From the NCBI GenBank assembly GCA_943348815.1, contig CALQYT010000006.1:2501-66500 (forward strand): a DNA stretch of 64,000 nucleotides, written 5' to 3'. Position numbers and translations under genes: made by a program. Below, one piece after another: positions 14,474-63,880 of the stretch; position 1 is the first letter of the stretch; the number at the start of each line of letters is the position of its first letter. A model generated the notes under the pieces. The model saw only the letters and a list, made by a program, of their open reading frames with translations, was not told the DNA's origin and ran no database searches. The stretch is from Candidatus Nomurabacteria bacterium. GTDB taxonomy: Bacteria; Patescibacteriota; Minisyncoccia; Phycocordibacterales; SBAW01.

Positions 14474-14549
14474 TGGAGCCAGAGGCCGGGATCGAACCGG
14501 CGACCTGCGGTTTACGATACCGCTGCTCTACCAACTGAGCTACTCTGGC
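14474..14549 (-). tRNA. tRNA-Thr(CGT), CCA encoded
   Basis: Hand-folded cloverleaf: acceptor GCCAGAG/CTCTGGC, anticodon stem GCGGT/ACCGC, loop ATCGTAA. Confidence 0.8.
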
Positions 14550-14576
14550 GTACTACCCTACTCCGGAATACCCGGG

Positions 14577-14649
14577 AGCCGAAGCCCGGAATCGAACCGG
14601 GGACCTACTCCTTACCATGGAGTTGCTCTACCATCTGAGCTACTTCGGC
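14577..14649 (-). tRNA. tRNA-Thr(GGT)
   Basis: Acceptor GCCGAAG/CTTCGGC, anticodon stem ACTCC/GGAGT, loop ATGGTAA. No encoded CCA. Confidence 0.75.
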
Positions 14650-14705
14650 AATGCAAAAACAGTATCGCATTTCTGCGCTTTTGGCGAGCCCAAAAAAATA
14701 AGCGA

Positions 14706-15314
14706 CTAGTCTACGGTACGTATAGTGGAAGCTTCAACGGTGAGTTGCGAAGTGTCCGACTGGAGCGTGCCGTTGATTGTAATGGTGTCGCCAACGTGCA
14801 CGTTGGCTAGTGAAATAGTTTTGCCGTCGTGATTGAGTACCCGCGTACCAAAATGTCGTGCACCGTAATCTTGTCCGTTGGTGGTTACTAGCCACGTAAA
14901 GTCTGCTCCGCCCCAGAGCGTTCGTACCAAAAGTTGTGAGCTGCTGACCGATTGCACTTGCGCATTGCGCAACAGCACCAAACCGGTGGGTGCAATGTGC
15001 ATCTCGACCATGGAGCTCTGCTCGGCAACCATGCTCACCGGTGCCTCAACACCCGCAAAAGCGGGGCGCGCTGCCGCCATCGAGAGAGCAAAAGCTCCCA
15101 CCGCAATTCCAAAAAAGGCGGAGGTAACAAAAAGTGCGGCAAAAGGCCGTTCGCGCACTATTGTCGGCGCGTACTGCCACACGCGGCCAAAAACACCGCC
15201 GAATATTCCTTCGATCTCTCTACCCAACCCAGCAGCGTCGGTATGCAGTTTGCGCGCGGCTTCGGTAGCAGCCGTTGAAAAATCTTGTGCGACAAGTTGG
15301 GGTTGAGAGCTCAT
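14706..15314 (-). CDS. Hypothetical membrane-anchored protein
   Basis: The ORF extends to 15479. The start MSSQPQ at 15314 is preferred but uncertain. There is a TM segment near the N-terminus. Confidence 0.4.
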   Translation of the reverse strand: MSSQPQLVAQDFSTAATEAARKLHTDAAGLGREIEGIFGGVFGRVWQYAPTIVRERPFAALFVTSAFFGIAVGAFALSMAAARPAFAGVEAPVSMVAEQSSMVEMHIAPTGLVLLRNAQVQSVSSSQLLVRTLWGGADFTWLVTTNGQDYGARHFGTRVLNHDGKTISLANVHVGDTITINGTLQSDTSQLTVEASTIRTVD

Positions 15315-15504
15315 CAACACACAATACGCAGGATATGATGAAGCCCCCATGAGTAAATCTATGCGCGAGAGACGGGCTTGGCTTTCGGTCGAACCTTGCC
15401 GTCGCAAAGTTCGCCTGCAGCCCCGGCTCGGTATTTTGCAAGTGCAAAATATACCTCCGCCGTTCAAGTCCCTCGGCAAGCACGCTTGCCGCTCTCGCTA
15501 CGCA

Positions 15505-15528
15505 AAAATCCCCCTGCGGGGATTTTTG
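15505..15528. terminator. Hairpin terminator adjacent to the tRNA-Asp 3' end
   Basis: aaaaatcccc-ctgc-ggggattttt, a 10-bp stem with T-tracts on both sides. Confidence 0.55.
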
Positions 15529-15532
15529 TCTG

Positions 15533-15606
15533 CGCGAGAGACGGGACTTGAACCCGCAACCTCGTCCGTGACAGGGACGCGCTCTAACCAGTTGAGCTAC
15601 TCCCGC
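15533..15606 (-). tRNA. tRNA-Asp(GTC)
   Basis: Acceptor GCGGGAG/CTCTCGC, anticodon stem CGTCC/GGACG, loop CTGTCAC. Confidence 0.8.
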
Positions 15607-15738
15607 ATTTTGTTGAGTCCCGACGCCTGGGTCGGGAGGCCGACCAAAGCGTCGGCCCTACTCCCGCAAAAGCTAACCTTCAATAACCGAGGGCAAGCAG
15701 GCGCATTCTAGCGTAAAACGAGCGCCCTTTCCAGCGCA

Positions 15739-16113
15739 TTAATTCCGGTCGCGGCGGTCTTTGAGCTCGCGAAATTTGCGGAATTCTGCTTCGAGCATCT
15801 CAAGCTCCGAGTCTTCCATCTCTTCGATATCAATTAATTTATTGCGCGCCGGGCCGATAGCTTTAATGAGCTCGTCGAGCTTAAGATGCACGGCATGCGA
15901 GTCGCGGTTTTGGGTGTTTTGAATCAAGAAAACCATCAAGAAGGTCAAAATCGTCGTGCCTGTGTTTATCACCAACTGCCAGGTGTTGGAGTAGTCGAAC
16001 CACGGTCCGGTGAGGGCCCACACCACCACCAATAAAAATGCCAGCATAAACGCCCACGAGCTGCCCACCAGCTCGGCGGTTTTGTGTGCAATACGGCGAA
16101 ATACTTCGTGCAT
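15739..16113 (-). CDS. Low-affinity iron permease-like small membrane protein
   Basis: 124 aa. WQLVINTGTTILTFLMVFLIQNTQNRD..KLDELI pattern, as recalled for this family. Confidence 0.45.
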   Translation of the reverse strand: MHEVFRRIAHKTAELVGSSWAFMLAFLLVVVWALTGPWFDYSNTWQLVINTGTTILTFLMVFLIQNTQNRDSHAVHLKLDELIKAIGPARNKLIDIEEMEDSELEMLEAEFRKFRELKDRRDRN

Positions 16114-16143
16114 GTTCCTAGTATACCCCTTTTAATCTGCGAG

Positions 16144-16217
16144 TACCGGGGGTGGGAGTTGCACCCACGACCTCAGCGTTATGAATGCTGTGCTCTTACT
16201 AACTGAGCTACCCCGGT
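16144..16217 (-). tRNA. tRNA-Met(CAT), elongator type
   Basis: Acceptor ACCGGGG/CCCCGGT with the 1:72 position paired. Anticodon loop TTCATAA. Confidence 0.7.
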
Positions 16218-16266
16218 ATGCAGGAAAAATACCACGCAACGAGCGCTTTTCCAAATTAACTTCTTG

Positions 16267-16338
16267 TTGCGGGGGCGGGAATTGCACCCGCGACCTTCAG
16301 GTTATGAGCCTGACGAGCTACTACTGCTCCACCCCGCG
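16267..16338 (-). tRNA. Initiator tRNA-fMet(CAT)
   Basis: Near-identical to the E. coli tRNA-fMet 5' half (CGCGGGGTGGAGCAG..GCTCGTC.GGCTCATAACC), with a C1:A72 mismatch. Confidence 0.8.
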
Positions 16339-35917: not shown

Positions 35918-36406
35918 TTATTGCGTCATCATTACTTTCGTATACGTAGTAACTTCGCCACGGCCTGTGAGGTCGGTGGTGGTCATCGTCTTGTCGTCGA
36001 CTTTGTTAACCACAAAGAAGGTTGTTTCAACGCCGCCGTCCCACACTACTTGTATGATCGGTAAGCCCGAGAGATTGGCGGCGAGTTTACTATTTGCCGG
36101 CAGTGCGGATGCGTTAACCGTACTCCACTCTCCGCCCGTGCCTGCACCCGCATCACCTTCGTAGCGGTCGATCATCACGCCGTCGGGGCGGATTTCGCGC
36201 GTAAATTTAGCGTCGGTTTTGCTCTGCCACATGCCCGACATTTTAGGGTCGCCAATATTTTCCTTCGTGTTCGAGGTTTGCGGCGTACTCGTTGCTTGCT
36301 GCGCACCCGTATCAGCGGGCGCCTTGCTCATTTGCGGCCAAAAATAAAATACTCCTGCGGCGATAATAACAATTGCGGCGACCACCCATCCTGCTGCTGC
36401 GTTCAT
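35918..36406 (-). CDS. Hypothetical membrane-anchored protein
   Basis: 162 aa with an N-terminal TM. Confidence 0.45.
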   Translation of the reverse strand: MNAAAGWVVAAIVIIAAGVFYFWPQMSKAPADTGAQQATSTPQTSNTKENIGDPKMSGMWQSKTDAKFTREIRPDGVMIDRYEGDAGAGTGGEWSTVNASALPANSKLAANLSGLPIIQVVWDGGVETTFFVVNKVDDKTMTTTDLTGRGEVTTYTKVMMTQ

Positions 36407-36461
36407 AGAGTGAAAATTAAAAAAAATAATACGCCTAGTATAGCGCGTCTAGAAACTATCG

Positions 36462-38225
36462 CTACCGCAGGATTCGGCTTGTCGGTATCATGGGTACAAA
36501 TTCTTTGAACGCCTCTCTCAGCTCTTTAATGCCGATGGGTTTGGTGAGGTGTGTCGTAAAGCCGGCCTCGAGCGCTTTTACCTTGTCTTCTGAAAGCCCA
36601 TAGCCGGTGAGTGCGATGACGGGTATTTGTACTCCGCGGGCGAGCAGGGTATGGATGACCGTGTACCCGTCCATATGCGGCATACCGATGTCGAGAATAA
36701 TCACATCAAACTTCGAGAGTGCCGTATGCGCAAGAATCTCTGCACCCGAGTAAAGCGCTTCTGCATGACACCCCAACTTGTTGAGAAGTTTAACGAGTGA
36801 GTCCGCAGCCCGCACGTTGTCGTCAACCACCAGCACACGCTGTGTCATACTCTCATTCCCTTGCGCGCCCGGCTTGGAAGCAAAAGAAAGGACCTCGGTG
36901 AGCGGAAGCTTGACGGTAAACTCGCTGCCTTTATTCCTCCCTTCGCTCGTTGCCACGATAAAACCTTTGTGCAACTCTACTATTTTTCGTACCAACGCAA
37001 GCCCGATGCCTAACCCGCTTGCATTGGTGCTGTCGCGTCCTTGGTAATATATTTCAAAAATATTAGGGAGATCTTCAGGATGGATGCCTTCGCCGTTGTC
37101 GCGGATCTTAATAATCGCGTATTCCTCTTCCTTGGAAAGATCAACCCAGATAGAACCTCCTTGGGGAGTAAACTTGACCGCATTACTCATCAGGTTGGTA
37201 AAGGCCTGTTCTAGCCGCGTGTCGTCCGCCCACACCTGGAGCGGTGTTGAGGGGTAGGTAAAGTGGAGCGTAATATCCGAGGTGCGCAATAGCGCGTCGC
37301 TTGCCTTCAGCGAGCGCTCCACCAATTTGCGCAGCTCCACGGTGTGCGGGACTATTTCTATCTTCGCCTGCGTAAAGCGCGTGACATCCAAAAGATCGCC
37401 GAGGAGTTTCGTGAGGTGGTCAAACTGATACTCAATGTTGTCGAGCTCCTCGCGCACATCGGTCGTGGTTTCGCGCAACTTCAAAAGCTCCAACGAACTT
37501 TTGATGGGCGCAAGTGGATTGCGCAGCTCGTGCGAGAGCGACGCTAAGAAAAGGTCTTTGGCTTTGTCGCGCTTGGTTATTTCTTCAGAGAGGCGGCCGT
37601 TATCCAAAATGACGCCAAGGTCGTTGCAAAATTCTTGAAAAAACTCGAAAGCGCTCTGCGTGTACACTCTACCGGATTCCGCATACCCAAGCGAAAGCGC
37701 GCCGAGTGTCTTGCCTCGCGCGCAAATAGGAATAATCATGAGCGACTTCAGCCCAAGGCGTTGCATCGCCTCTAAATGCTCGGGCGAGCGAGCGCCTTGC
37801 CGTATCGTTTCGTCGGTAACGACCGGCACAAACTGTGCGTTGCCCGTCCTGATAGCCGTATACAGATCGCTAGAATTTTTTTCAGTCGTAGGGAAACGTT
37901 TTTCAAATTCAAAAAGATAGTCCGTCATCTTTTGGTCCTTGTGGATGACGGCGATACGCTCGAGACCATTACCCTCGATGAGTACGTCGATAGCGCACCA
38001 GTCGGCGAGCGAAGGTACGGTTAGTTTGGCTTTTTGGAGGAGCCACGTGCGGAAGTCTACTTTGGTCGAAAGGATCTTTGCCGACTCCATCATGAACCGG
38101 AGCTTGTTTTCGCGCGAGTCGAGGCGCAAGGCTTCGGCGGCGCTCAGGGTGTCTTTTTTAGGTTTGATCATATAAAAATTACGGCCGCGCAGGACATTGC
38201 CGTGTAGGTGCACTATAGACTCCAA
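36462..38225 (-). CDS. Hybrid sensor histidine kinase/response regulator (GAF-HisKA-HATPase-REC)
   Basis: H-box SHELRNPLAPI, N/G boxes and a C-terminal receiver (VLVVDDN..ILDIGMPHMDG..KP). Confidence 0.85.
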   Translation of the reverse strand: MESIVHLHGNVLRGRNFYMIKPKKDTLSAAEALRLDSRENKLRFMMESAKILSTKVDFRTWLLQKAKLTVPSLADWCAIDVLIEGNGLERIAVIHKDQKMTDYLFEFEKRFPTTEKNSSDLYTAIRTGNAQFVPVVTDETIRQGARSPEHLEAMQRLGLKSLMIIPICARGKTLGALSLGYAESGRVYTQSAFEFFQEFCNDLGVILDNGRLSEEITKRDKAKDLFLASLSHELRNPLAPIKSSLELLKLRETTTDVREELDNIEYQFDHLTKLLGDLLDVTRFTQAKIEIVPHTVELRKLVERSLKASDALLRTSDITLHFTYPSTPLQVWADDTRLEQAFTNLMSNAVKFTPQGGSIWVDLSKEEEYAIIKIRDNGEGIHPEDLPNIFEIYYQGRDSTNASGLGIGLALVRKIVELHKGFIVATSEGRNKGSEFTVKLPLTEVLSFASKPGAQGNESMTQRVLVVDDNVRAADSLVKLLNKLGCHAEALYSGAEILAHTALSKFDVIILDIGMPHMDGYTVIHTLLARGVQIPVIALTGYGLSEDKVKALEAGFTTHLTKPIGIKELREAFKEFVPMIPTSRILR

Positions 38226-38424
38226 ACATGAAGATCTCCTAAAGATGAGCTCAAGCCTATCTTGTCAATACTTTTTTGGTCTGGGCGGTGGTGATGTCCC
38301 GATGTTCGAACCGAAACGGCTTCATTTCAGAAGCGTTGATAAAATCGTACGTGATTTAAGGCGAATCTACAAAGAAAATCCTGCCTTATTCGATATTCCT
38401 ACTTTTGCTCAGAAGATTTACTGA
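38197..38424 (+). CDS. Small ORF, paralog copy 1 (..FEPKRLHFRSVDKIVRDLRRIYKENPALFDIPTFAQKIY)
   Basis: 75-aa ORF. Its 3' end overlaps the SET gene 3' end on the opposite strand. The start is uncertain (M at 38197, 38245 or 38299). Confidence 0.3.
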   Translation: MPCRCTIDSKHEDLLKMSSSLSCQYFFGLGGGDVPMFEPKRLHFRSVDKIVRDLRRIYKENPALFDIPTFAQKIY

Positions 38425-39046
38425 TCTGCTCAACTTGCTCGTCGGAAAGCTTCGAACCGGCAAGACGAGTAGAGGCTCCAGCGGAAGCTATGAGGGTAGC
38501 GCGGCGGAGAATACACTCATTTAAGTAAGGAGAGAAATGTCCTTCATAGCGCTCTTGCAAGTCCTTGTTCTGCCAGTCCTTACCTGTAATCGTATGGCGA
38601 CATAGACTCGTACCACATTTGCACTCTCCTGGCATTATATAATTATCGTCAATAACGAAGGTTGCGTAGTCAATAGTGAGCTCCTCTTCAGGTTGTATAT
38701 TGCAACGAGCACTTATAGTTACCCCATCCTCCATCCAGGTATTAGGATCGCAGGAGTGATTATGGTTATAACTCGGGTCGTCGTTTTTAGTAGCATGGTC
38801 AAAAATGTCATACAAATTTTCTCCGATTCGCTGAACGGCTCTACCCTCCTGTTTTGCTTTTTGAGCCTCGGTTTCATTTACGAAATCTCCGCCCCAAATG
38901 ACAACCACTTCGCCAGTTTTGATTGGCTCAATAGCAAACAAACCTCTGCCGTGAGCCGGAGAGTTTCTTTCTTCTACTTTTGGACTAATCCAAGATTCTT
39001 TTAAATACTGTTTTTCGCTCATAGTTCGAATCCCTTTGGGGTTCAC
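38399..39046 (-). CDS. SET-domain protein with a C-terminal Fic_N-like segment
   Basis: SET motifs GRGLFA, NHSCDPN, EELTIDY and post-SET CKCGTSLC. The last ~30 aa (TLIASAGASTRLAGSKLSDEQVEQI) match the Fic N-terminal region of the 60582 protein. Confidence 0.8.
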   Translation of the reverse strand: MNPKGIRTMSEKQYLKESWISPKVEERNSPAHGRGLFAIEPIKTGEVVVIWGGDFVNETEAQKAKQEGRAVQRIGENLYDIFDHATKNDDPSYNHNHSCDPNTWMEDGVTISARCNIQPEEELTIDYATFVIDDNYIMPGECKCGTSLCRHTITGKDWQNKDLQERYEGHFSPYLNECILRRATLIASAGASTRLAGSKLSDEQVEQISKSSEQK

Positions 39047-39275
39047 TCATTTTATCATTTCTCAGTTTTGAGATGTAGCGCAAAATAAGGGAATTTTTAC
39101 TACTACTTTCCAAAACTACTGGCGGTGGCGATCTCCGCAAGTTAGAACCGGTAATCGCCTTAAAGTCCTTGAATTTCGGACGTATAGATAAAATTATACG
39201 CCGTTTGAGGCTATTTTACAAGGAAAATCCAGCCTCGTTTGATGTTCCGGCCTTTGCTGTTAAGGTCTACTAAGA
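39047..39275 (+). pseudogene. Small ORF, paralog copy 2, lacking an ATG start (..LEPVIALKSLNFGRIDKIIRRLRLFYKENPASFDVPAFAVKVY)
   Basis: About 65% nt identity to 38285-38424. Has an in-frame upstream stop and no start codon. Ends 18 bp from the prophage holin stop. Confidence 0.35.
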
Positions 39276-39292
39276 TCGGATTTTAGCTAAAT

Positions 39293-39511
39293 CTAAAGAG
39301 TTCCTTGCTGGCCTTCGCTCTCCTCGATCAATCTCTGCTCTTTGAGGTATCGGGTTATCGCATACCACGCCGAGTTGATCACTGGGATCAACAACGCCCA
39401 GCGAGGGTCGTTTTGAACGTAAGCGATCAGAAGCGGCAGGATGGACGATACTGCAGAGTAAAAGAAAACAATTGCGAGGTGCTTAAGTGCTTCTTTTTGA
39501 GGTGTTGTCAT
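39293..39511 (-). CDS. Holin-like small membrane protein (2 TM)
   Basis: 72 aa, two hydrophobic helices, adjacent to the amidase. Confidence 0.4.
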   Translation of the reverse strand: MTTPQKEALKHLAIVFFYSAVSSILPLLIAYVQNDPRWALLIPVINSAWYAITRYLKEQRLIEESEGQQGTL

Positions 39512-39516
39512 AGTTA

Positions 39517-40092
39517 TTAGTTAATTATTTGTTTTATCATTGCCAATCCTTCCTCTACTTTCCTCACACCCTCCTCGACTGAAGGCTTTGGCGTTTCTGT
39601 TTGCTGGTTGGCTAGTGCCACCAGTTCGTCGAGGATTCTTTTATTGGTTGCCGGGCAGTTTGGTTTCTTTGAGAAGATCTCAAAGTGGCCAACGACATGA
39701 TCACGGTCAATCGGAATCTGCCATCGCTGACAAATCTCTCGGATCAAGGTTGCGCTGGATTGCTTCATTGCTTCAGTCCATCCCTCGTCTGGCTTACCCT
39801 CATGTTCAATACCGATCGTGTACAGGTTCGGGTTTACGTTCGGTCTTATAAGTTTCCAAACTGGGGCGTCCACTCGGCCAGCGTGCCAGGCGGCGTCATT
39901 CTCTTGAACGTATTGGTGGACTTCGCCACTTTTTCCGATCCCATAGTGTGCGCTGACTTGCGAAGTTGGGTTGGCAAACCACGAGTCAGTGCCCGGTAGT
40001 GTGCCATCCATGATGTGAATGACCACTGCTTCTGGCCGGTAACCTTTGCGTCCCACCCAGAAGTTGGATGATTTCTTTTGAATGATGTTCAT
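39517..40092 (-). CDS. N-acetylmuramoyl-L-alanine amidase (Amidase_2/PGRP endolysin)
   Basis: AHYGIGKSGEVHQYV..AWHAG..IGIEHEG..HVVGHFEI..CP, zinc-amidase motifs. Confidence 0.85.
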   Translation of the reverse strand: MNIIQKKSSNFWVGRKGYRPEAVVIHIMDGTLPGTDSWFANPTSQVSAHYGIGKSGEVHQYVQENDAAWHAGRVDAPVWKLIRPNVNPNLYTIGIEHEGKPDEGWTEAMKQSSATLIREICQRWQIPIDRDHVVGHFEIFSKKPNCPATNKRILDELVALANQQTETPKPSVEEGVRKVEEGLAMIKQIIN

Positions 40093-40095
40093 AGA

Positions 40096-40353
40096 TTATT
40101 TGTTAATGGTTAGTAGTAGGTTGATGATGGCTGTAATGAGCCCGCCGATTGATGCCGTAGCAATAATCCAAAAGAACCGCTTGAGCCAATCAACGTCAGT
40201 TCCGACTTTGGTCATGTCGGTCTGCAGATGTACAAGATGATTGTCTTTTATTTCGTTCACGGCTTTTTCAACCCGGTCGAGACGCTCATCTTGTAGTTGG
40301 TTTTGGTAGTCGGTTCTATCCATGTGATTATTTCGGCACGTAGGCTCTTTCAA
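40096..40353 (-). CDS. Small C-terminally membrane-anchored protein (holin/spanin-like)
   Basis: 85 aa. The probable start is MDRTDY at 40323. C-terminal TM. Confidence 0.35.
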   Translation of the reverse strand: MKEPTCRNNHMDRTDYQNQLQDERLDRVEKAVNEIKDNHLVHLQTDMTKVGTDVDWLKRFFWIIATASIGGLITAIINLLLTINK

Positions 40354-43144
40354 ATTTATTTATGAGGCCTCTAGCTTCCAATTCTTGCTCTAGGCGATTC
40401 TGGAGTTCTTGCTGTCGGTAGAACTTTTCTTTTTCGATGTCTACGTTTTTTGCTTTTGCGCCAATCAATCCATACAAGAACTTCACAGCTCCGGATGTAT
40501 TCTGATCGCTTAACTTCCCGGCAGTGTTGTAGAACCTGCCAAGAGCGGTGTTTAAGAAGTGAAGCTTATAAGCATTGCCTCGATAACTGACTGAACCGTC
40601 TTTGTTTTTGTGTTCGGTTACTTCCAGCCAGTCTCTTAATCCCGGCACTGAATTCACGAACGGAAAGACTCTATTGTTTGCTTCAATAGGTTCGCCGGTG
40701 AAAAGGTTTTGCCCGGTGCCGACTTCGATTGGATATTTCAGGAGCGGAGATAGTTCACCGACCATGCTCGCCACAGTCCGTTTCGCATCTCCTTTCCAAA
40801 TGCGATTAATGTCTTCGACGGGCAGTCCCAGTCCGTAGAGGTATTGAGAGAAACCGTTCTTTTCACCAAGTCGGACCGGCAGACCCTCTCGCATGTAGGG
40901 CGGTAAGGCGGCGAACTCTTCTTTGGCTTTCTGTTTGTTGTCGCCCTGCAGATTTTCCAGAAGTTTACCGATTGCTCCGTACTTGCCGGGCTGTTTGGCC
41001 ATCTGCTCAAGCTGAAGTGGAATGTTGCCTCGTGTCCATCGGTAGAATGGCAACAGTCGCTTCATTACGTTTTGTTCAAAGCCGGTTAGGGCTTCGGGCG
41101 CATAGTCGAAGTGGAATTGAAATACCTGTTTTGCGGCTTGTTCGGGTGCGTCGCCTTTGATAAGACGATCCACGAACAATGGCAAACGTAATCTGTTTTC
41201 GACCACCTCCATCGCTTTTTTGGGCGTATCCATGAGTTTGGACACAGGGCCCTTACCAATGTCTTTTTCGACCTCACGCATCACATCCAAATACCCAGGC
41301 TGTCCGACGACTCCCAGTTTGTTGGCCAATTCACGGATTTGGCCATATGAGTATTTGGTGCCAAGTTTAGTGGTGATCGTCCCCTCAAGACCCCGAGCGA
41401 TCTGATCGCCTTGCAAATATCGTGCAGGACTCTTTACTCCAGCGAGCCAGTTGTTGAACACGCCACCAATAGAGTTTCTGGTGTGGAATGACGGAAACCA
41501 TCCGGTTACCGATCCTTTCCAAAAACCAAGTGCTTTGTCATAGAGACTTAGGAACTTCCTAGTGGCCTCCTCGTTGGTCAGAGTTTTATAAGTGTCATCT
41601 ACATGCTTTGCGATCTGTTCAGGTAGTAACGTTCCTTTGAGTTGTGGTACTGAGCTTTCGATATACCGGATGCCATTTTCAAAGATGGGTCTGATCGTTT
41701 CTTTGGTCGTCATCTTTCCAGTGATCGGATTTTTAATTTCTTTGGTGATGACTTCCGCTTGTCTGCCGAATTGCTGACCGACGTTGGTCAAAAAGTCATA
41801 AGTATTTACGGCCTTGATGTGTTCGGCCTTACGGGCGGCAAACGCTTTGAAAGCGTCGGGTTCAAAGAGCTGTACACCGTATCTGCCTTGGAAGTATTTG
41901 TTGATCCCTTCGATGGTGCCGTCCAACTGTCTGGTCTTTGCAAATGGATTTTTAACACGAAGCGGTTTGTTTAGTTCGGCCGTTATGTTCATGCCGGTCT
42001 TATTCAGGAAGTCACGGCCCTCGGGTGTGAGATAGTGTCGAACATAATCTGGTAATTCCGTATCTAGGATTCCTTTCTCTTTTTCTATCGTGGCAAAGTT
42101 CGCATGCTGGCCTCGGATATTTTCCATGATCGTGTCGATCACGCTCTTTGGGGCTTCAGCAACCTGAGCGGCTTCTTTTGCCACTGGGCTTTCAAGCATT
42201 TTGCCAATCTCAAGTCCTGCGGTATTGCCCAGCTCTTTTTTGGCTGTCTTACCGAGTGCGGCCGCTTCCTCGACAGCTTTGCTTACTTCGGCTCGGGTGC
42301 CTTTGCTGAATGCAGTAAACTTGTCGAGATATTCTTGGCCTATACCACCGGGCATTTCTTTAATGGCCTTGAATGGCACAAATGCTTTACCGGCCAAGTC
42401 TTTTGCGCCTTGGTAGAGTTTGCCGACAACCGGTGTCTTTTCAACGATAGTATCTGCGGCTCTGAACGGAGCGGTCACTGCGGCTCGGGGCAATATCTGT
42501 TTGCCCATAAACTTGAGGCCGTCTTTAGCGAGAAACTTTTCGCCGCCTTCCTCAAGAACTTTTACGGCTACTGCTTTTCGTCCGGCTTCCTCACCGAGCT
42601 TCAAGATCGAGTCTTTAAGAAGGGTCGTACCGGCTTTGCTCAACGCCACCTCGCCAGCTTTGGTTGCCAATTTAGCTTCGGCCCCATAACCGAATGTTAT
42701 ATATGTAGTCGGATCAAGGAGCACGTCGGCAATAAAGCCACCGATAGGATTCTTAATGCCTAGAGCTTCGGACGGTAGTGTACGTTCTTTTATACCCCTC
42801 ATTATTCCTTTGCCACTGATAAGACCGCCGACTGCGTATGCTCCGGTGTTGAGTAAGTGGAGGAGTCGTTGCAGGACAGATTCTTTCGGCTGGGCGTTGG
42901 AAACATCCACACCTTGTTGAGCGGCGTAATCTTGAAGTCCAGCGACCGTTGTGACTTTCGGCTTGGCCGCAGGAGTGGAGGAATCGCTTGGCATCATCGT
43001 GTACTTGCCACTGGCATCCTTGCCGTACTTCATTCCCGATCCAGAGCTGGGTTCGGCAACCTTAATCGGCGCAACGGGTTTTATTGCCTGTACCGCATCG
43101 GTTCGTATGTACTTTCCAGTTGTAGGGTCTTTAACGTAGGCCAT
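40328..43144 (-). CDS. Large virion protein (938 aa), putative internal/ejection or tail-associated protein
   Basis: Start MAYVKDP 4 nt after the LysM-gene stop. Long Lys/Ala-rich alpha-helical protein. Confidence 0.55.
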   Translation of the reverse strand: MAYVKDPTTGKYIRTDAVQAIKPVAPIKVAEPSSGSGMKYGKDASGKYTMMPSDSSTPAAKPKVTTVAGLQDYAAQQGVDVSNAQPKESVLQRLLHLLNTGAYAVGGLISGKGIMRGIKERTLPSEALGIKNPIGGFIADVLLDPTTYITFGYGAEAKLATKAGEVALSKAGTTLLKDSILKLGEEAGRKAVAVKVLEEGGEKFLAKDGLKFMGKQILPRAAVTAPFRAADTIVEKTPVVGKLYQGAKDLAGKAFVPFKAIKEMPGGIGQEYLDKFTAFSKGTRAEVSKAVEEAAALGKTAKKELGNTAGLEIGKMLESPVAKEAAQVAEAPKSVIDTIMENIRGQHANFATIEKEKGILDTELPDYVRHYLTPEGRDFLNKTGMNITAELNKPLRVKNPFAKTRQLDGTIEGINKYFQGRYGVQLFEPDAFKAFAARKAEHIKAVNTYDFLTNVGQQFGRQAEVITKEIKNPITGKMTTKETIRPIFENGIRYIESSVPQLKGTLLPEQIAKHVDDTYKTLTNEEATRKFLSLYDKALGFWKGSVTGWFPSFHTRNSIGGVFNNWLAGVKSPARYLQGDQIARGLEGTITTKLGTKYSYGQIRELANKLGVVGQPGYLDVMREVEKDIGKGPVSKLMDTPKKAMEVVENRLRLPLFVDRLIKGDAPEQAAKQVFQFHFDYAPEALTGFEQNVMKRLLPFYRWTRGNIPLQLEQMAKQPGKYGAIGKLLENLQGDNKQKAKEEFAALPPYMREGLPVRLGEKNGFSQYLYGLGLPVEDINRIWKGDAKRTVASMVGELSPLLKYPIEVGTGQNLFTGEPIEANNRVFPFVNSVPGLRDWLEVTEHKNKDGSVSYRGNAYKLHFLNTALGRFYNTAGKLSDQNTSGAVKFLYGLIGAKAKNVDIEKEKFYRQQELQNRLEQELEARGLINKFERAYVPK

Positions 43145-60581: not shown

Positions 60582-61646
60582 ATGAAAGACATTACACGAA
60601 AATTCGATCATCGCATTAAAAATCCCGATCCGCACATCGTGGCTCTTTTGGCTGAGATTGATGGTATCCGGGGTGAGTTCAAGTCAGGTTTGCGAATGAC
60701 GCCACAGGCAATTACTAATCTCCGCAAGTCGACACTCATCACATCTGCCGGTGCCTCGACTCGTATTGAGGGCGCGAAACTTACCGACGAGGAAGTGGAG
60801 AAGATCATGCGCGGTCTTGCGGTCTCTAAATTTGCCGATCGTGATTCGCAGGAAGTGCAGGGCTATCTCGAAACGCTTCAGAATGTTTTCGATAGCTTCC
60901 AAACTCTGCCGCTTCGCGAGGGCATCATTACTTCGCTTCACAAACAGCTCCTCAAATACTCAACCAAAGATGACACGCATCGAGGCGGTTACAAAAAGAA
61001 AGAGAATACTGTCGGCGTACTTGGACCGGATGGCAAGGTCGCGCGGATCATGTTTGAGACGACAAAAGCGTTCCTTACTCCCAAGGAAATGCAGGAGCTC
61101 GTGGACTGGACTGCTGATGCGTTTGAGAAGAGCCGTTTCCACCCTCTCCTTATCATCGCGAACTTCATTATTGAATTTTTGAAAATCCACCCATTCGAGG
61201 ACGGCAATGGGCGTCTTTCGCGTGTCCTTACAAATCTCTTGCTTCTGCGATCCGGCTACCAGTTCGTACAGTATGTCTCTCACGAGCAGATTGTTGAACG
61301 CCGCAAGGACGAATACTATCTTGCGCTCCGCAAGTCGCAGGAGACGTTCAAGACTGATCACGATACTATTGCGCCATGGCTCAATTTCTTCCTTTCAGTC
61401 ATCAAGGAGCAAGCCACAAAAGCACTCTCGTACCTGGAAGAAGAAAAAGTCGAGGACAATCTCTCTCCAAAGCAATACGAGGTCTGGAAGCATGTCTCAA
61501 GTGTCGGCGAGGCCGCACCGGGCGAGATCGTCAAAGCAACCGGTATAGCACTGGGCACAGTTCGCCAGGCACTTAACAGTTTGGTTGATCTGGGCAAGGT
61601 CAAGCGCGTTGGGCGTGGCCGGGGTACACGGTATGTAAAAATATAA
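60582..61646 (+). CDS. Fic family protein with N-terminal inhibitory motif and C-terminal wHTH
   Basis: Fic motif HPFEDGNGRLSR, inhibitory (S/T)xxxE(G/N) = STRIEG and a C-terminal wHTH (GTVRQALNSLVDLGKVKRVGRGRGTRY). Confidence 0.85.
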   Translation: MKDITRKFDHRIKNPDPHIVALLAEIDGIRGEFKSGLRMTPQAITNLRKSTLITSAGASTRIEGAKLTDEEVEKIMRGLAVSKFADRDSQEVQGYLETLQNVFDSFQTLPLREGIITSLHKQLLKYSTKDDTHRGGYKKKENTVGVLGPDGKVARIMFETTKAFLTPKEMQELVDWTADAFEKSRFHPLLIIANFIIEFLKIHPFEDGNGRLSRVLTNLLLLRSGYQFVQYVSHEQIVERRKDEYYLALRKSQETFKTDHDTIAPWLNFFLSVIKEQATKALSYLEEEKVEDNLSPKQYEVWKHVSSVGEAAPGEIVKATGIALGTVRQALNSLVDLGKVKRVGRGRGTRYVKI

Positions 61647-61666
61647 ACTTAAATTGGAAATCGCCT

Positions 61667-62170
61667 ATGAACACACAAAATCATAAACACGAAGAAGCAA
61701 AACGATACCTCAAAAAGTTTGAGATCGTTGAGACCGAAGTTGAGTTGCCGATTCAGGGTCAGGTGAAAGATCCGGAAGACCTTTACCAGTTCCTCAAGGA
61801 TTTGGAGAACGAGAGTGTACCCAAGACTATCGGGATTTATCTCGATGATAAAAACTTGTTTCTTGGGCATCAGATCTTTTTAGGTTCCTCTCCCAAGAAC
61901 TTCAATACCCAGATGCTCTGGCATTACTTCTCTTTATTTCTTGCTCAAAAGTTTATCCTCCTAATTAATCATCCGGGCTCTGCTGATCCGACGCCGGATG
62001 AGATCGACAAAAAACTCATGCGAGCTCTACAGGCCGACTCGCAGGTTTTGTCGTTCAAACCATTTTTTGCAGACTTCATTATCGTGGCTAAAAAATCTTA
62101 CTTCAGCATGGCGACCAACGACGGTACAACGGCTCATTCTGGCCATCAGGAACATATTACGAAATTTTAA
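61667..62170 (+). CDS. RadC-like JAB/MPN domain protein
   Basis: LINHPGSADPTPDEID..DFIIV resembles the RadC HNHPSG..PS..D motif. 21-bp gap after the Fic gene. Confidence 0.55.
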   Translation: MNTQNHKHEEAKRYLKKFEIVETEVELPIQGQVKDPEDLYQFLKDLENESVPKTIGIYLDDKNLFLGHQIFLGSSPKNFNTQMLWHYFSLFLAQKFILLINHPGSADPTPDEIDKKLMRALQADSQVLSFKPFFADFIIVAKKSYFSMATNDGTTAHSGHQEHITKF

Positions 62171-62173
62171 TTT

Positions 62174-63880
62174 ATGAAATACGTCAAATTTACCCTCAAA
62201 GATTATAAAGCGATCGCCGGTGAGCTGGAGATAGATATTAAAAAATCCTTGCTCCCCATTATTGGCATCAACGAAAGCGGCAAGACCAGTATCTTGTGGG
62301 GTATTTTCGCTTTCGATGAAGCTAATGATTCACTCAACGATGGTCGGCACATGAAAAATGTCGGCAACCTTTATAAAACAAGTAATCGCGGGGAGCCGTC
62401 GATCATAGCTGATATTGAGGCAACTAAAGAAGAATTGATTGATTTTTTAGACAGTATTGATAGTAGTGCAGAAACACCGGCCGAAGCAAAGGCAGAAATA
62501 AAGAAATACAAACGAGCTCTTTCCTCATGGGCTGACGTGATCCGGATTAAACGAAACTTGATAAGCAAAACATACAGTATCGAGAATCCGGGGTTAAAAC
62601 CATTCTCACATCTCAATCCGCTCATGATCGAGGAGTGTCTCGGCAGTACGCCTTATATTCTCTACTTCGATGATTTCCGGGACACCATTCACGAGGAGAT
62701 CCTGATCGAGGGTGAGGCTGGCTCCCCTAAGGGATGGCTTGCGATTATCGAGCAGTTGTTCAAAAAGACCAATCCCAGCTATTCAGTCTACAAACTTCAA
62801 GGGACCGAGGAGCTTCAAAGAAAAAGCATCATGGCTGACGTGTGTAAGACCCTTAACAACACGTTGGCCAAAGAGTGGGAGAAGTTCACCCTTGAGGAGG
62901 GATCACGACTGGACGTTGATATTCAGTATGTCGCCACAGAAAACAAACTCAACCTTTTCATAAAAGAAAACATCGATGGCAATGATCGCTACTTTGGTAT
63001 TCAGGATCGAAGCAAAGGTTTTTATTGGTTCTTTAATTTCGTGATGAAGCTCGAGTTTAATCCGAAAGTCCGAAGCATGGATGACAAAGATACTATCTAC
63101 TTACTGGATGAGCCGGGTTCTTATCTCTATTCCAGCGCACAAGCAAAGCTCTGTGAAAAGTTAGCCTTGTTGTCTCAAAATAATGTGGTCATTTATTGCA
63201 CTCATTCACATTACTTGCTTGATCCGGATAAGATACCTTTGAGCTATATCAAGATTGCTCAAAAGGGTGGTGATGGGAGCGTTAAGCTCGTCTCGCTTCC
63301 GGAGTACAAAGACGATAAAAAAGAAAAACGACTTGCGATCCAGCCGATTATCGATGCACTAAAAATCAAACCATTTATTACAGACTTTAATTTCGAGTAT
63401 CTCTGTATCGTCGAGGGTATTTACGATTACTATGTTTTTGAGATGTTTCAGGGCGAAAATCACAACCTTAAATTTTTGCCGGCCGTGAATGCGGATAGCT
63501 TGAAGTATTTCATCTCTATTGCAATTGGGTGGCGCGTTCAGTACGTGGCCATGTGGGACAATGACGCCGAGGGCAAAAAGGAGTTCACAAAAGCGCAGGG
63601 ATTTTTCGGGGAGCGGGAAGCAAAAAAGTTTCTGCTCTTGCCATCGGAGAATCCACGCAAAAAAAACTTTATTCTGCAGGACTTATTTGTCGGTGGCGAC
63701 CTGAAGATGATTAAGCAAGAGCTTAGCCTTCCTGCGAATGCCGCTTTTGAGAAAACAATCCTAATGCTGTATTTCAGCGATAAGCGCAAGGAAATAGTTG
63801 GCAAAATTTCCAACGACACCAAAAAGGCGGTTAAGCACGTGTACACGAAAATTAACGAGCTATATCAGAGTTCTCAATAA
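62174..63880 (+). CDS. OLD-family ATPase-Toprim nuclease (ABC-type ATPase N-terminus, Toprim C-terminus)
   Basis: Walker A IIGINESGKTS, Walker B-like IYLLDEPGSYL and Toprim CIVEG..MWDNDAEG. 4-bp gap after the upstream gene. Confidence 0.6.
   Translation: MKYVKFTLKDYKAIAGELEIDIKKSLLPIIGINESGKTSILWGIFAFDEANDSLNDGRHMKNVGNLYKTSNRGEPSIIADIEATKEELIDFLDSIDSSAETPAEAKAEIKKYKRALSSWADVIRIKRNLISKTYSIENPGLKPFSHLNPLMIEECLGSTPYILYFDDFRDTIHEEILIEGEAGSPKGWLAIIEQLFKKTNPSYSVYKLQGTEELQRKSIMADVCKTLNNTLAKEWEKFTLEEGSRLDVDIQYVATENKLNLFIKENIDGNDRYFGIQDRSKGFYWFFNFVMKLEFNPKVRSMDDKDTIYLLDEPGSYLYSSAQAKLCEKLALLSQNNVVIYCTHSHYLLDPDKIPLSYIKIAQKGGDGSVKLVSLPEYKDDKKEKRLAIQPIIDALKIKPFITDFNFEYLCIVEGIYDYYVFEMFQGENHNLKFLPAVNADSLKYFISIAIGWRVQYVAMWDNDAEGKKEFTKAQGFFGEREAKKFLLLPSENPRKKNFILQDLFVGGDLKMIKQELSLPANAAFEKTILMLYFSDKRKEIVGKISNDTKKAVKHVYTKINELYQSSQ

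What the first reader, a model, noticed from the sequence alone, without database searches (positions are those of the whole stretch)
38399..39046. SET-domain protein ending in a Fic N-terminal-like helix whose inhibitory Glu is replaced
The protein has canonical SET/post-SET motifs. Its last ~30 residues (RATLIASAGASTRLAGSKLSDEQVEQI) are about 70% identical to the N-terminal segment of the Fic protein 21 kb away (STLITSAGASTRIEGAKLTDEEVEKI). That segment carries the Fic auto-inhibitory (S/T)xxxE(G/N) motif, but here it is TRLAG: Glu to Ala. The gene is either a SET-Fic_N fusion, a relic of a Fic gene, or a trans-acting Fic-regulating helix. It sits exactly at the prophage boundary.
Basis: seen in the sequence. 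Interest (0 to 1): 0.6.

Follow-up and report, generated by a model that had tools for sequence, protein, structure and literature searches.

The report
SET cargo fused to cassette micro-ORF
The Fic-like tail on this SET methyltransferase is not a leftover of the nearby Fic gene: it is the end of a conserved 57-residue mini-gene that belongs to a widespread, apparently undescribed family of single-gene cassettes found next to serine tRNA genes in candidate-phyla-radiation (CPR) bacteria, here attached to the end of a prophage.

Summary
The 207-aa SET/post-SET protein ends in about 36 residues homologous to the autoinhibitory-helix region of the Fic protein 22 kb away, with Ala at the inhibitory Glu position.

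The interpretation needs revising. The tail is the C-terminal two thirds of a stand-alone 57-aa ORF family (over 100 members in CPR bacteria). That family is 50% identical to Fic residues 34-79. Its "Glu" position is dimorphic across the family (52 Ala, 48 Glu).

This micro-ORF is part of a conserved backbone:
- a 106-nt promoter/leader block;
- a variable cargo gene;
- the 57-aa ORF;
- a 140-nt terminal block.

The backbone flanks dozens of unrelated cargo genes. In 19 loci it directly abuts a tRNA-Ser gene, and it often forms tandem arrays. The terminal block is the 3' end of a phage large serine integrase gene that spans attP. It is not a decayed Fic domain.

In the window, the 844-bp SET cassette (38285-39128) lies between two such blocks at the end of an SU10-like prophage. 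Related phages lack it.

Cargo-tail fusions arose independently in at least five other cargos. The tail is under purifying selection (dN/dS 0.02-0.15). Its function is inferred: probably a trans-acting Fic-binding helix.

The parts
38285..39128 (-). The whole 844-bp SET cassette: leader block, SET cargo fused to the micro-ORF tail, and terminal block DR1
   Evidence: Homology to the cassette backbone in more than 40 loci starts and ends at these limits. Related phages L088/L089 stop matching the window at 39119-39122 and lack this segment. Homology to L001/L002/L003 stops at 38284/38285.
39020..39128 (-). Conserved leader block ('up5'): TGnTAAAAT -10-like box, CCC..GGG hairpin and AAGGGA Shine-Dalgarno-like site, ending at the cargo ATG. 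Its first 8-9 nt overlap the recombination core.
   Evidence: 77-92% identical upstream of unrelated cargos. Alignment of 39 copies. In 19 loci its start overlaps the 3' end of a tRNA-Ser gene.
38510..39022 (-). SET + post-SET cargo part (residues 1-171)
   Evidence: Pfam SET E 4.6e-13. 319 homologs, most about 175 aa without the tail. Model pLDDT 91.6 with top PDB matches ASH1L, MLL1 and NSD1. dN/dS 0.035-0.09.
38399..38509 (-). Tail (residues 172-207 plus stop): LRRATLIASAGASTRLAGSKLSDEQVEQISKSSEQK. It derives from residues about 21-57 of the cassette's 57-aa ORF and is homologous to the Fic inhibitory helix, with Ala188 at the Glu position.
   Evidence: 80-92% identical to stand-alone 55-65-aa proteins P0121-P0223. 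hhalign of the family against the window Fic residues 34-79: probability 97.9, E 3.3e-13. dN/dS 0.02-0.15. Per-codon-position identity 0.82/0.92/0.45 over 40 loci. The model shows helix 165-189, a turn, then helix 194-203.
38284..38424 (+). DR1: orphan 3' end of a large-serine-integrase gene (attP P-arm). It is an open frame without a start codon, GGGDVPMFEPKRLHFRSVDKIVRDLRRIYKENPALFDIPTFAQKIY*, and overlaps the SET stop region by 25 nt on the opposite strand.
   Evidence: Direct repeat with 39121-39271 (67.5%, E 5.8e-9). Conserved 46-codon frame, wobble periodicity 0.62/0.83/0.83, no conserved start. In frame with the integrase end ...VLTWTSGG in the L105+L088 reconstruction and contiguous with it in natural contigs L112-L115.
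39121..39273 (+). DR2: the prophage's own copy of the integrase 3' end / attP P-arm. It marks the end of the phage proper.
   Evidence: 76-86% identical to the terminal block of related phages L088 and L089, whose homology to the window starts here.
39293..40092 (-). Last phage genes before DR2: a 72-aa membrane protein and the Amidase_2 endolysin (context)
   Evidence: Pfam Amidase_2 E 7.4e-29. Same gene order in L001 and L088.
60582..61646 (+). Prophage SoFic-type class II Fic protein (Fic_N, Fic and wHTH). Residues 45-76 (60716-60807) are the segment similar to the tail, and it carries its own STRIEG motif and HPFEDGNGR.
   Evidence: Pfam Fic E 2e-16. PADLOC SoFic E 1.9e-42. PDB 8uqu_A E 6.3e-38. 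Conserved at 79-88% in four related viral contigs.

Best explanation
Shown:
- The SET gene is the cargo of an 844-bp non-autonomous cassette (38285-39128).
- The cassette backbone is shared by dozens of unrelated cargo genes in CPR/Patescibacteria genomes. It consists of a 106-nt promoter/leader block, a conserved 57-aa micro-ORF just after the cargo, and a 140-nt terminal block.
- Chromosomal cassettes start at the 3' end of tRNA-Ser genes and can be stacked in arrays.
- The terminal block is the 3' end of a phage large-serine-integrase gene whose attP lies inside the gene. This explains why it reads as 46 conserved codons with no start codon.
- In the window the cassette lies between two such blocks: DR2, the end of an SU10-like prophage, and DR1, the junction with host DNA.
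- In the SET cassette the last few SET codons, the SET stop codon and the first ~20 micro-ORF codons are missing. SET therefore now reads straight into the micro-ORF.
- The micro-ORF is a stand-alone homolog of the Fic N-terminal inhibitory-helix hairpin. It is closest to the Fic genes of this same phage family.
- Its Glu position is Ala in half of the family, so Ala here is inherited and not a local mutation.
- The tail is translated and under purifying selection.

Inferred (about 0.35):
- The micro-ORF or tail docks on a SoFic-type Fic core as a class I antitoxin helix does. The Glu form blocks AMPylation. The Ala form binds without blocking, acting as a decoy or tether that here brings SET along.
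- The fusion itself is probably a tolerated deletion that keeps both functions.
For: Tail versus stand-alone family:
- Only five close SET homologs carry the tail (four proteins P0001-P0004, and L067). About 300 others end near residue 175.
- The tail is 80-92% identical to more than 100 stand-alone 55-65-aa proteins.

Cassette architecture:
- The same leader and 3' blocks flank SET, NUDIX, HIT, kinase, methyltransferase, S51 peptidase, GATase, ANT-like and membrane cargos.
- Arrays occur in L016, L022, L024, L040, L044 and L087.
- tRNA-Ser abuts the leader in 19 loci.

Cassette as an add-on to the phage:
- Phages L088 and L089 lack the cassette.
- L067 has the same SET-tail cassette directly at a chromosomal tRNA-Ser.

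Terminal block is the integrase 3' end:
- The large serine recombinase in L105 runs antisense into tRNA-Ser.
- About 33 close homologs reach ...SGG and then continue with tRNA-antisense sequence or end; a few shorter entries break off earlier.
- The junction is in frame, and intact attP occurs in L112-L115.

Coding signal: codon-position conservation and dN/dS.

Independent fusions: different junction positions in L040, L046, L050, L058 and L087.

Homology to Fic:
- hhalign E 3.3e-13.
- Best PDB match is the inhibitory-helix region of 8uqu.
- Weak YhfG/FicA hit.
- The phage Fic clade is the closest to the tail.

Dimorphism: A 52 / E 48.
Against: - No Fic catalytic domain lies within 6 kb of the micro-ORF in about 35 CPR loci, so there is no class I toxin-antitoxin gene pair.
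- The window Fic has its own inhibitory helix.
- No binding or activity data exist, and a complex could not be modelled here.
- The micro-ORF matches no Pfam, NCBIfam, PHROG or PADLOC model above threshold.
- The cassette's left end is not a P' arm of the phage attP, and no recombinase is linked to the chromosomal cassettes. How cassettes move is therefore unresolved.
- It is also unresolved whether the phage carries the SET cassette or integrated upstream of a resident one.
Confidence: 0.78

Rival explanations
1. The micro-ORF or tail has a job unrelated to Fic enzymes. One possibility is a small recombination directionality factor or accessory protein for the large serine integrase whose attP arm it adjoins. 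Another is a cassette maintenance or regulatory peptide. The Fic similarity would then reflect only its evolutionary origin.
For: - It is always encoded next to, and overlaps by 25 nt, the integrase 3' end/attP arm.
- It is never linked to a Fic core.
- The supposedly key Glu is dispensable in half of the family, and both forms are conserved.
- Known directionality factors of serine integrases are small and unrelated to each other (own knowledge).
- It has a Lys-rich N-terminus.
Against: - The most conserved stretch is exactly the Fic inhibitory motif region, SAGASTR(L/I)(E/A)G, nearly identical to the phage Fic. That is unexpected after a change of partner.
- The phages themselves (L088, L089, and the window up to DR2) lack the micro-ORF although they need their own directionality factor.
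- In-frame fusions that delete the Lys-rich N-terminus are tolerated.
Confidence: 0.27
2. The tail is a functionless read-through created by a deletion. It is kept only because the underlying DNA is constrained by the overlapping integrase 3' end, by att-site function, or by frequent recombination with intact cassettes.
For: - The last 8 tail codons overlap the antisense integrase frame.
- Two fused cargos (L058, L087) are frameshifted after ...AGSKLS, which shows decay of the distal part.
- The tail has lower model confidence than the SET domain (pLDDT 65-80).
Against: - In the 86-nt non-overlapping part, third codon positions vary freely while first and second positions are conserved (0.82/0.92/0.45).
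- Pairwise dN/dS of the tail among five SET-tail genes is 0.02-0.15 with pS 0.42-0.61, as low as in the SET domain.
- The frame is preserved in at least six independent cargo fusions.
Confidence: 0.1
3. One reading: the gene is the remnant of a Fic gene broken at the prophage boundary, with a decayed Fic domain downstream, or a recent recombinant with the Fic gene 22 kb away.
For: - There is 74% DNA identity over 92 nt to the window's Fic, in inverted orientation.
- The phage Fic clade is the closest true Fic to the tail.
Against: - No similarity to Fic beyond residue 77 in any frame of 36000-41000.
- The downstream DNA is integrase-derived.
- The tail is far closer (80-92% protein, 80-84% DNA) to cassette micro-ORFs in other genomes than to the window's Fic.
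- The fusion predates the divergence of five SET-tail genes with saturated synonymous sites.
Confidence: 0.03

Closest known systems
Class I Fic antitoxins (VbhA, FicA/YhfG): small proteins that supply the (S/T)xxxE(G/N) inhibitory helix in trans
   Same: - A stand-alone protein of about 57 aa built around an inhibitory-helix homolog, with the motif at the C-terminal end of a long helix.
- About half of the family keeps S-x-x-x-E-G.
- Weak YhfG profile hit in the motif region (E 0.14).
   Different: - Not encoded next to a Fic toxin.
- Half of the family, and all fused tails, have Ala instead of Glu.
- It is part of a mobile cassette backbone.
- It does not reach any curated family threshold.
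SoFic-type class II Fic proteins (Fic_N + Fic + wHTH; PADLOC 'SoFic'; EF-Tu AMPylase, bioRxiv 10.64898/2026.07.09.737422)
   Same: The tail and micro-ORF align to residues 34-79 of the window's SoFic-like protein. These correspond to the inhibitory helix and the helix after it.
   Different: - No dimerisation helix, no Fic core and no HTH.
- The Glu that blocks AMPylation and catalyses deAMPylation in SoFic (E73) is Ala in the SET tail.
Bacterial and viral SET-domain lysine methyltransferases with a post-SET zinc cluster
   Same: SET fold, NHSC, ELxxDY and CxCx4C, with structural matches to ASH1L/MLL1/NSD1.
   Different: - The C-terminal helix is prolonged into a foreign 36-residue helix-turn-helix.
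- The substrate is unknown.
- Tail-less homologs sit in other mobile elements.
Integron gene cassettes
   Same: Single, highly diverse accessory genes (NUDIX, nucleotidyltransferase, methyltransferase and others), each followed by a conserved recombination-associated block and stacked in tandem arrays.
   Different: - No attC-like hairpin or covariation.
- No IntI or attI nearby.
- Each cassette has its own promoter-like leader.
- The repeat is sequence-conserved, partly protein-coding, and derived from a serine integrase gene.
- The anchor is a tRNA-Ser gene.
tRNA-anchored islands of integrase-less cargo elements (e.g. tycheposon satellites in Prochlorococcus, bioRxiv 10.1101/2020.12.28.424599) and phage morons next to attR
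   Same: Cargo units accumulate at a tRNA gene, are separated by att-like repeats, lack their own recombinase, and occur at the end of a prophage after the lysis genes.
   Different: - Units are only 0.7-1.3 kb with one gene.
- They share a fixed promoter block and a fixed micro-ORF.
- The repeat is the integrase's own C-terminal coding end.
- I did not test tycheposon defining features.
Integration-dependent gene truncation (mycobacteriophage BPs repressor spanning attP; SSV1 integrase split on integration). This comparison is from my own knowledge.
   Same: attP lies inside a phage gene, so the protein's C-terminus differs between the free and the integrated state.
   Different: - Here the gene is a large serine integrase.
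- Only the last 43-46 residues are exchanged, for tRNA-antisense sequence.
- The detached end is what the cassettes carry.

Membership tests
SET-domain protein lysine methyltransferase (PF00856) with post-SET | Significant match to the SET profile | tested here: met
   E 4.6e-13, 49.9 bits against a cutoff of 22.4, residues 25-119.
SET-domain protein lysine methyltransferase (PF00856) with post-SET | NHxC cofactor motif, catalytic Tyr in ELxxDY, and the CxCx4C post-SET zinc cluster | tested here: met
   N88-H89-S90-C91, E114..D118-Y119, and C134, C136, C141 are invariant or nearly so in 103 sequences.
SET-domain protein lysine methyltransferase (PF00856) with post-SET | SET fold | tested here: met
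   Model pLDDT 91.6. Foldseek probability 1.00 to ASH1L, MLL1 and NSD1.
SET-domain protein lysine methyltransferase (PF00856) with post-SET | Methyl transfer to a lysine of a defined substrate | not testable with these tools
   Needs biochemistry.
Fic inhibitory-helix module (class I antitoxin-like) | Homology to the inhibitory-helix region of Fic proteins | tested here: met
   hhalign probability 97.9, E 3.3e-13, 50% identity over 46 columns. Best PDB hit is the 8uqu_A motif region.
Fic inhibitory-helix module (class I antitoxin-like) | Complete (S/T)xxxE(G/N) motif | tested here: not met
   The window tail has S184-T-R-L-A188-G189, with Glu replaced by Ala. Across the family there are 48 Glu, 52 Ala and 1 Gly.
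Fic inhibitory-helix module (class I antitoxin-like) | Encoded next to a Fic toxin that lacks its own inhibitory helix | tested here: not met
   No Fic core within 6 kb in CPR cassette loci. The window's Fic is 22 kb away and has its own STRIEG.
Fic inhibitory-helix module (class I antitoxin-like) | Binds a Fic core and modulates AMPylation | not testable with these tools
   No multimer modelling or assay was available.
Pfam Fic_N (PF13784) | Profile match at or above the gathering score | tested here: not met
   No Fic_N hit for the SET protein or for P0149/P0155, even at E <= 10. The window's Fic itself scores only 17 bits.
Integron gene cassette | attC imperfect palindrome after the ORF | tested here: not met
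   Consensus fold of 22 terminal blocks gives -8.6 kcal/mol, a covariation term of -0.32, and 1 compensatory pair.
Integron gene cassette | Linked IntI tyrosine recombinase and attI platform | tested here: not met
   99 flanking ORFs were scanned and no recombinase family is among the recurrent hits. Arrays start at tRNA-Ser instead.
Integrative element using a large serine recombinase at a tRNA gene | Junction at the 3' end of a tRNA gene, with a repeat of the core at the far end | tested here: met
   The core TGGCGG/CCGCCA is found at the tRNA-Ser end and at each terminal-block end.
Integrative element using a large serine recombinase at a tRNA gene | Element-encoded recombinase | tested here: inconclusive
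   It is present in the related prophage (L105: Resolvase+Recombinase+Zn_ribbon). The corresponding end of the window's prophage lies beyond 64000. Cassettes have none.
Integrative element using a large serine recombinase at a tRNA gene | Two-armed attP (inverted repeat around the core) on the mobile unit | tested here: not met
   This refers to the cassette. The phage attP is a near-perfect inverted repeat, but the cassette junction has only the P arm.

The most novel reading that the evidence does not exclude
CPR bacteria and their phages exchange a previously undescribed class of miniature, promoter-bearing, single-gene cassettes anchored at tRNA-Ser. Each cassette carries a trans-acting mimic of the SoFic inhibitory helix. 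The Glu form would silence Fic-type defence or toxin enzymes. The Ala form would bind without silencing. When fused to cargo, as in this SET enzyme, it would tether the cargo to Fic or to Fic's target complex. The Glu/Ala dimorphism would then record a conflict between mobile elements and Fic-based immunity.
Probability: 0.2. Interest if true: 0.85.

Novelty: new variant of a known kind. Interest (0 to 1): 0.66.

Why it matters
A curious fusion protein turns out to mark three linked things that I could not find described.

1. There is a cassette system in CPR/Patescibacteria that spreads very diverse small enzymes at tRNA-Ser genes and on phages.
2. There is a highly conserved 57-aa relative of the Fic autoinhibitory helix that exists apart from any Fic enzyme, in Glu and Ala forms. 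This offers a natural experiment on trans-regulation of SoFic-type AMPylases, which PADLOC lists as anti-phage defence proteins.
3. There is a large serine integrase whose C-terminus changes on integration because attP lies inside its gene.

For annotation, it explains thousands of small 'hypothetical proteins' called on the antisense strand of these blocks.

Tried and rejected
- **Typo in DNA pattern.** My first collection pattern had one N too many and matched nothing. This wasted one genome scan and one viral scan.
- **Known RNAs.** Rfam found nothing in 38100-39500 apart from a chance thermometer hit.
- **Decayed Fic domain.** None is present downstream of SET in any frame.
- **Antisense small ORF as an independent gene, or as the end of a long host protein.** Rejected. 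It has no conserved start, and all 74 database hits are short ORFs with unrelated N-termini.
- **attC-like or other hairpin in the terminal block.** No support.
- **Recombinase next to chromosomal cassettes.** None is recurrent.
- **Cassettes in IMG/VR viral contigs.** None were found beyond two phage ends without cargo.
- **Unfused SET cassette as an ancestor.** Not found. Tail-less SET homologs lie in other mobile contexts.
- **Fold search with the 57-aa model.** Uninformative.
- **Promoter and terminator consensus scan.** Not above the shuffled background.
- **Full-length integrase carrying the DR-encoded end.** Not found among the homologs listed. Only attP sites with the last 6-10 integrase codons were found.
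Full report
**1. Observation**

The minus-strand ORF 38399..39046 is real. Its probable start is the ATG at 39022, giving 207 aa, because the conserved leader ends there and all homologs begin at that Met.

It is a canonical SET/post-SET protein:
- Pfam SET E 4.6e-13.
- NHSC, ELTIDY and CxCx4C are invariant in 103 homologs.
- The AlphaFold model has pLDDT 91.6 and matches ASH1L, MLL1 and NSD1.

Its last ~36 residues match residues 45-76 of the Fic protein at 60582..61646:
- 73.9% over 92 nt, blastn E 1.4e-10 within the window.
- tblastn E 1.1e-8.

The two segments are 22.2 kb apart and inverted. The motif reads STRLAG against STRIEG in Fic. The same fusion is present in five independent assemblies, so it is not a chimera.

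**2. Where the tail comes from**

- Of 319 SET homologs, nearly all end near residue 175. Among the proteins, only P0001-P0004 (82-93% identical) carry the tail. L067 adds a fifth tail-bearing gene.
- Searching with the tail alone returned 103 proteins. Almost all are stand-alone ORFs of 55-65 aa from Parcubacteria, Magasanikbacteria, Liptonbacteria and other CPR lineages, and they are 80-92% identical to the tail.
- Their consensus is MTKxKxxKKNxGISPERLAELRRATLIASAGASTRL[A/E]GSKLSDKEVExVxNxVFGQK.
- Residues 18-44 are at least 90% conserved, except the 'Glu' position, which is Ala in 52, Glu in 48 and Gly in 1. The two states largely follow two subfamilies (nearest-neighbour agreement 0.77).
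- The Ala of the SET tail is therefore inherited from the family, not a local loss.

**3. The cassette**

The stand-alone ORF always follows a variable gene. Two blocks that flank SET in the window also flank those unrelated genes:
- a 106-nt leader (window 39128-39020, in minus-strand orientation);
- a 3' block made of the micro-ORF plus a 140-nt terminal sequence (window 38509-38285).

Both are 72-92% identical across loci.

Forty-four cassettes from 38 loci have cargos of 108-309 aa. These include SET, four NUDIX, three HIT, P-loop kinases, GrpB-like and ANT-like nucleotidyltransferases, a SAM methyltransferase, S51 peptidases, a GATase, CYTH, pyrophosphatase and membrane proteins.

The leader carries a conserved TGnTAAAAT box, a CCC..GGG hairpin and an AAGGGA site 9 nt before the ATG.

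Units are stacked head to tail in L016, L021, L022, L024, L040, L044 and L087.

In 19 loci the first leader overlaps by 8-9 nt the 3' end of a tRNA-Ser gene with anticodon gct, gga, cga or tga. The junction reads ...CTCCGCCA|GTAGTTTTGGAAAGT.

**4. The terminal block**

On the strand opposite to SET it is an open frame of 46 codons, GG(G/D)DVPKLEPKRLNFRSVDKIVRDLRRIYKENPxLFDxPTFAQKxY*. It has these properties:
- wobble-type periodicity of 0.62/0.83/0.83;
- in-frame indels;
- no conserved start codon;
- database matches only to short ORFs with unrelated N-termini.

The explanation came from a related IMG/VR prophage (L088, L093 and L105 are parts of one 55.9-kb contig, 70-76% identical to the window).
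- Its far end carries a CI-like repressor and a 538-aa large serine recombinase.
- That recombinase ORF runs antisense into tRNA-Ser(cga)...VLTWTSGG|EGGIRTLDTL.
- Nearly all close integrase homologs (about 33 of the 39 listed) end their conserved part at ...SGG and then continue with tRNA-antisense sequence or stop there; a few shorter entries break off earlier.
- Joining the integrase body to the terminal block of the same prophage keeps the frame and gives a 553-aa protein ending ...TSGGGDVPKLEPIRGLHYSRVDKIVRDLRRIYKDNPASFDVPAFAVKVY.
- Four metagenome contigs contain this junction intact, for example ...VQTWTSGGGDVPKFEPKKWLKF...YKENPAYFDIQTFAQKVY* in L114.
- The junction forms a near-perfect inverted repeat: GGTTCTAACTTGGACATC-TGGCGGTGGC-GATGTCCCGAAGTTAGAACC.

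So attP lies inside the 3' end of the integrase gene. The terminal block is that gene's detached end plus the P arm. It is not a decayed Fic domain.

**5. Layout of the window**

| Coordinates | Feature |
|---|---|
| 1-38283 | Host DNA: GC 0.52-0.55, tRNA cluster, hybrid histidine kinase |
| 38284-38424 | DR1 |
| 38399-39022 | SET-tail gene |
| 39020-39128 | Leader block |
| 39121-39273 | DR2 |
| From 39293 | SU10-like prophage, GC 0.45-0.50 |

The prophage runs through a 72-aa protein, the amidase, a holin-like protein, a 974-aa protein, LysM, adaptor, capsid, portal, ParB-like and D12 methylase genes. It then has a plus-strand block with the SoFic-like Fic, RadC and an AriA/PtuA/Old-like ATPase. 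By comparison with L105, the integrase end should lie near 77 kb, outside the window.

Phages L088 and L089 match the window only from 39119-39122 onward and have no cassette. L001 has the same phage plus the same SET cassette but an unrelated host flank. L067 has the SET-tail cassette directly at a chromosomal tRNA-Ser.

The cassette is thus a separable 844-bp unit. Carriage by the phage is the more parsimonious reading of the window-versus-L001 comparison. Integration of the phage upstream of a resident cassette is not excluded.

**6. The fusion**

- Compared with stand-alone cassettes, the SET cassette lacks the last few SET codons, the SET stop codon and the first ~20 micro-ORF codons. The junction reads ...HFSPYLNECI|LRRATLIAS...
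- Fusions with other junction positions exist for a GATase (L040), a membrane protein (L046), an ANT-like enzyme (L050), an S51 peptidase (L058) and a NUDIX enzyme (L087). All have Ala. These fusions are therefore recurrent and independent.
- Among five SET-tail genes with nearly saturated synonymous sites (pS 0.42-0.61 in the tail), dN/dS of the tail is 0.02-0.15. For the SET part it is 0.035-0.09.
- Over 40 loci, codon-position identity in the non-overlapping part of the tail frame is 0.82/0.92/0.45.
- The model continues the SET C-terminal helix through residue 189, so that Ala188-Gly189 lie at its end. A turn (SKLS) and a second helix (194-203) follow, with pLDDT 65-80.
- The stand-alone protein is predicted as the same hairpin: helices 15-38 and 43-54, pLDDT 70.

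**7. Relation to Fic**

- The family profile aligns to residues 34-79 of the window's Fic with probability 97.9, E 3.3e-13 and 50% identity.
- The best PDB match is the motif region of 8uqu_A, which is also the best structural relative of the window's Fic.
- There is a weak hit to YhfG, the FicA antitoxin family (E 0.14).
- PADLOC classifies the window's Fic as SoFic (E 1.9e-42).
- In SoFic the inhibitory helix (Q54-E73) ends in SSEIE(inh)N. E73 blocks AMPylation-competent ATP binding and is required for deAMPylation of EF-Tu (bioRxiv 10.64898/2026.07.09.737422).
- Among about 40 true Fic genes collected, the Fic genes of this phage family are the closest to the tail, at 18-20 identities in 29-31 residues against 14-19 for the others. 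Only the window's Fic gives a DNA-level hit. The micro-ORF therefore probably derives from this Fic lineage.
- No Fic core lies within 6 kb of the micro-ORF in CPR loci, so the arrangement is not a class I toxin-antitoxin pair.

**8. How it most likely works**

Established here: the origin, the architecture, and the fact that the tail is translated and constrained.

Inferred (about 0.35): the hairpin still binds a SoFic-type core, because the residues it shares with Fic are exactly the inhibitory-motif region and are almost invariant. On this reading, Glu forms would act like class I antitoxins. Ala forms would bind without blocking ATP or supporting deAMPylation, and in fusions would tether the cargo.

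Rivals:
- A Fic-unrelated role, such as a directionality factor for the adjacent integrase site (0.27).
- A functionless read-through (0.10), which the selection data argue against.
- A local Fic relic (0.03), which is contradicted.

How cassettes move is unresolved. They carry only the P arm of attP and no recombinase is linked to them. Homologous recombination through the ~400-nt backbone, or use of tRNA-Ser|leader as an attB, are the open options.

**9. Novelty**

The SET fold, the Fic inhibitory helices, tRNA-targeting prophages and cassette arrays are all known kinds. The combination found here was not found in Pfam, NCBIfam, PHROGs, PADLOC or Rfam. It was also not found in three literature searches. 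That combination consists of:
- a fixed promoter block;
- a Fic-helix micro-ORF with a Glu/Ala dimorphism;
- an integrase-derived terminal block;
- a tRNA-Ser anchor;
- recurrent cargo fusions.

I file it as a new variant of known kinds.

Noticed in passing
L105:14476-16092 with tRNA-Ser at L105:15993-16082; L088:8000-8142; window 38284-38424 and 39121-39273: The phage large serine integrase gene spans attP. In the prophage its ORF ends in tRNA-Ser antisense sequence (...TSGG|EGGIRTL...). In the free form it would end in a conserved 43-46-residue tail encoded at the other prophage end. The integrase C-terminus is therefore swapped on integration, which could act as a directionality or stability switch.
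   Followed up: yes
L016, L021, L022, L024, L040, L044, L087 (for example L022:5083-7228, L024:5512-7026): There are tandem arrays of two or three cassettes with different cargos in CPR genomes. The first unit starts at a tRNA-Ser gene of any of four anticodons.
   Followed up: partly
L112:~490-691, L113:~90-288, L114:~460-661, L115:818-1020: These contigs contain complete inverted-repeat attP sites with only the last 6-10 integrase codons upstream and the conserved C-terminal coding block downstream. There is no integrase body. They may be orphan attP sites or other integrase-less elements.
   Followed up: partly
window 60582-63880 (+): The prophage carries a plus-strand block of a SoFic-type Fic (PADLOC E 1.9e-42), a RadC-like JAB protein and an AriA/PtuA/Old-like AAA ATPase (E 6e-17). 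It looks like a prophage-borne defence cluster. Fic and RadC are conserved in the related viral contig L093, followed there by methylases, an SbcC-like ATPase and a PD-(D/E)XK nuclease.
   Followed up: partly
P0011, P0041, P0043 (SET homologs): Some tail-less SET homologs are fused at the C-terminus to a PemK/MazF toxin domain (298-306 aa). This is a second, unrelated kind of SET fusion in the same family.
   Followed up: no
L106, L108, L110: Tail-less SET homologs (70-74% identical) sit in other mobile contexts: after an HTH gene, after PrgI/TraC-like conjugation genes, and near a Rep protein. This SET protein is therefore a common accessory gene of CPR mobile elements.
   Followed up: no
L088:5260-7700: The host flank next to the cassette-free phage end encodes an S24 LexA/CI-like protein, a weak SMODS-like nucleotidyltransferase and a 205-aa membrane protein. 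This may be a CBASS-like module.
   Followed up: no
window 14474-16338 (-): The host part contains a cluster of five tRNA genes (Thr-cgt, Thr-ggt, Asp, and two Met). There is no tRNA-Ser anywhere in the window.
   Followed up: no
window 39020-39045 (leader block) and the equivalent position in all cassettes: Just before the cargo ATG, the leader contains GAACCCnnAAGGGATTCGAAC. On the opposite strand this reads like a tRNA T-arm (GTTCGAATCCC). Its role is unknown; it could be a recombinase half-site, a regulatory hairpin or a relic.
   Followed up: no
window 36462-38225 (-): The start of a hybrid GAF-histidine-kinase-receiver gene lies only about 60 nt from the cassette/host junction. Insertion may therefore have displaced its promoter region.
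   Followed up: no
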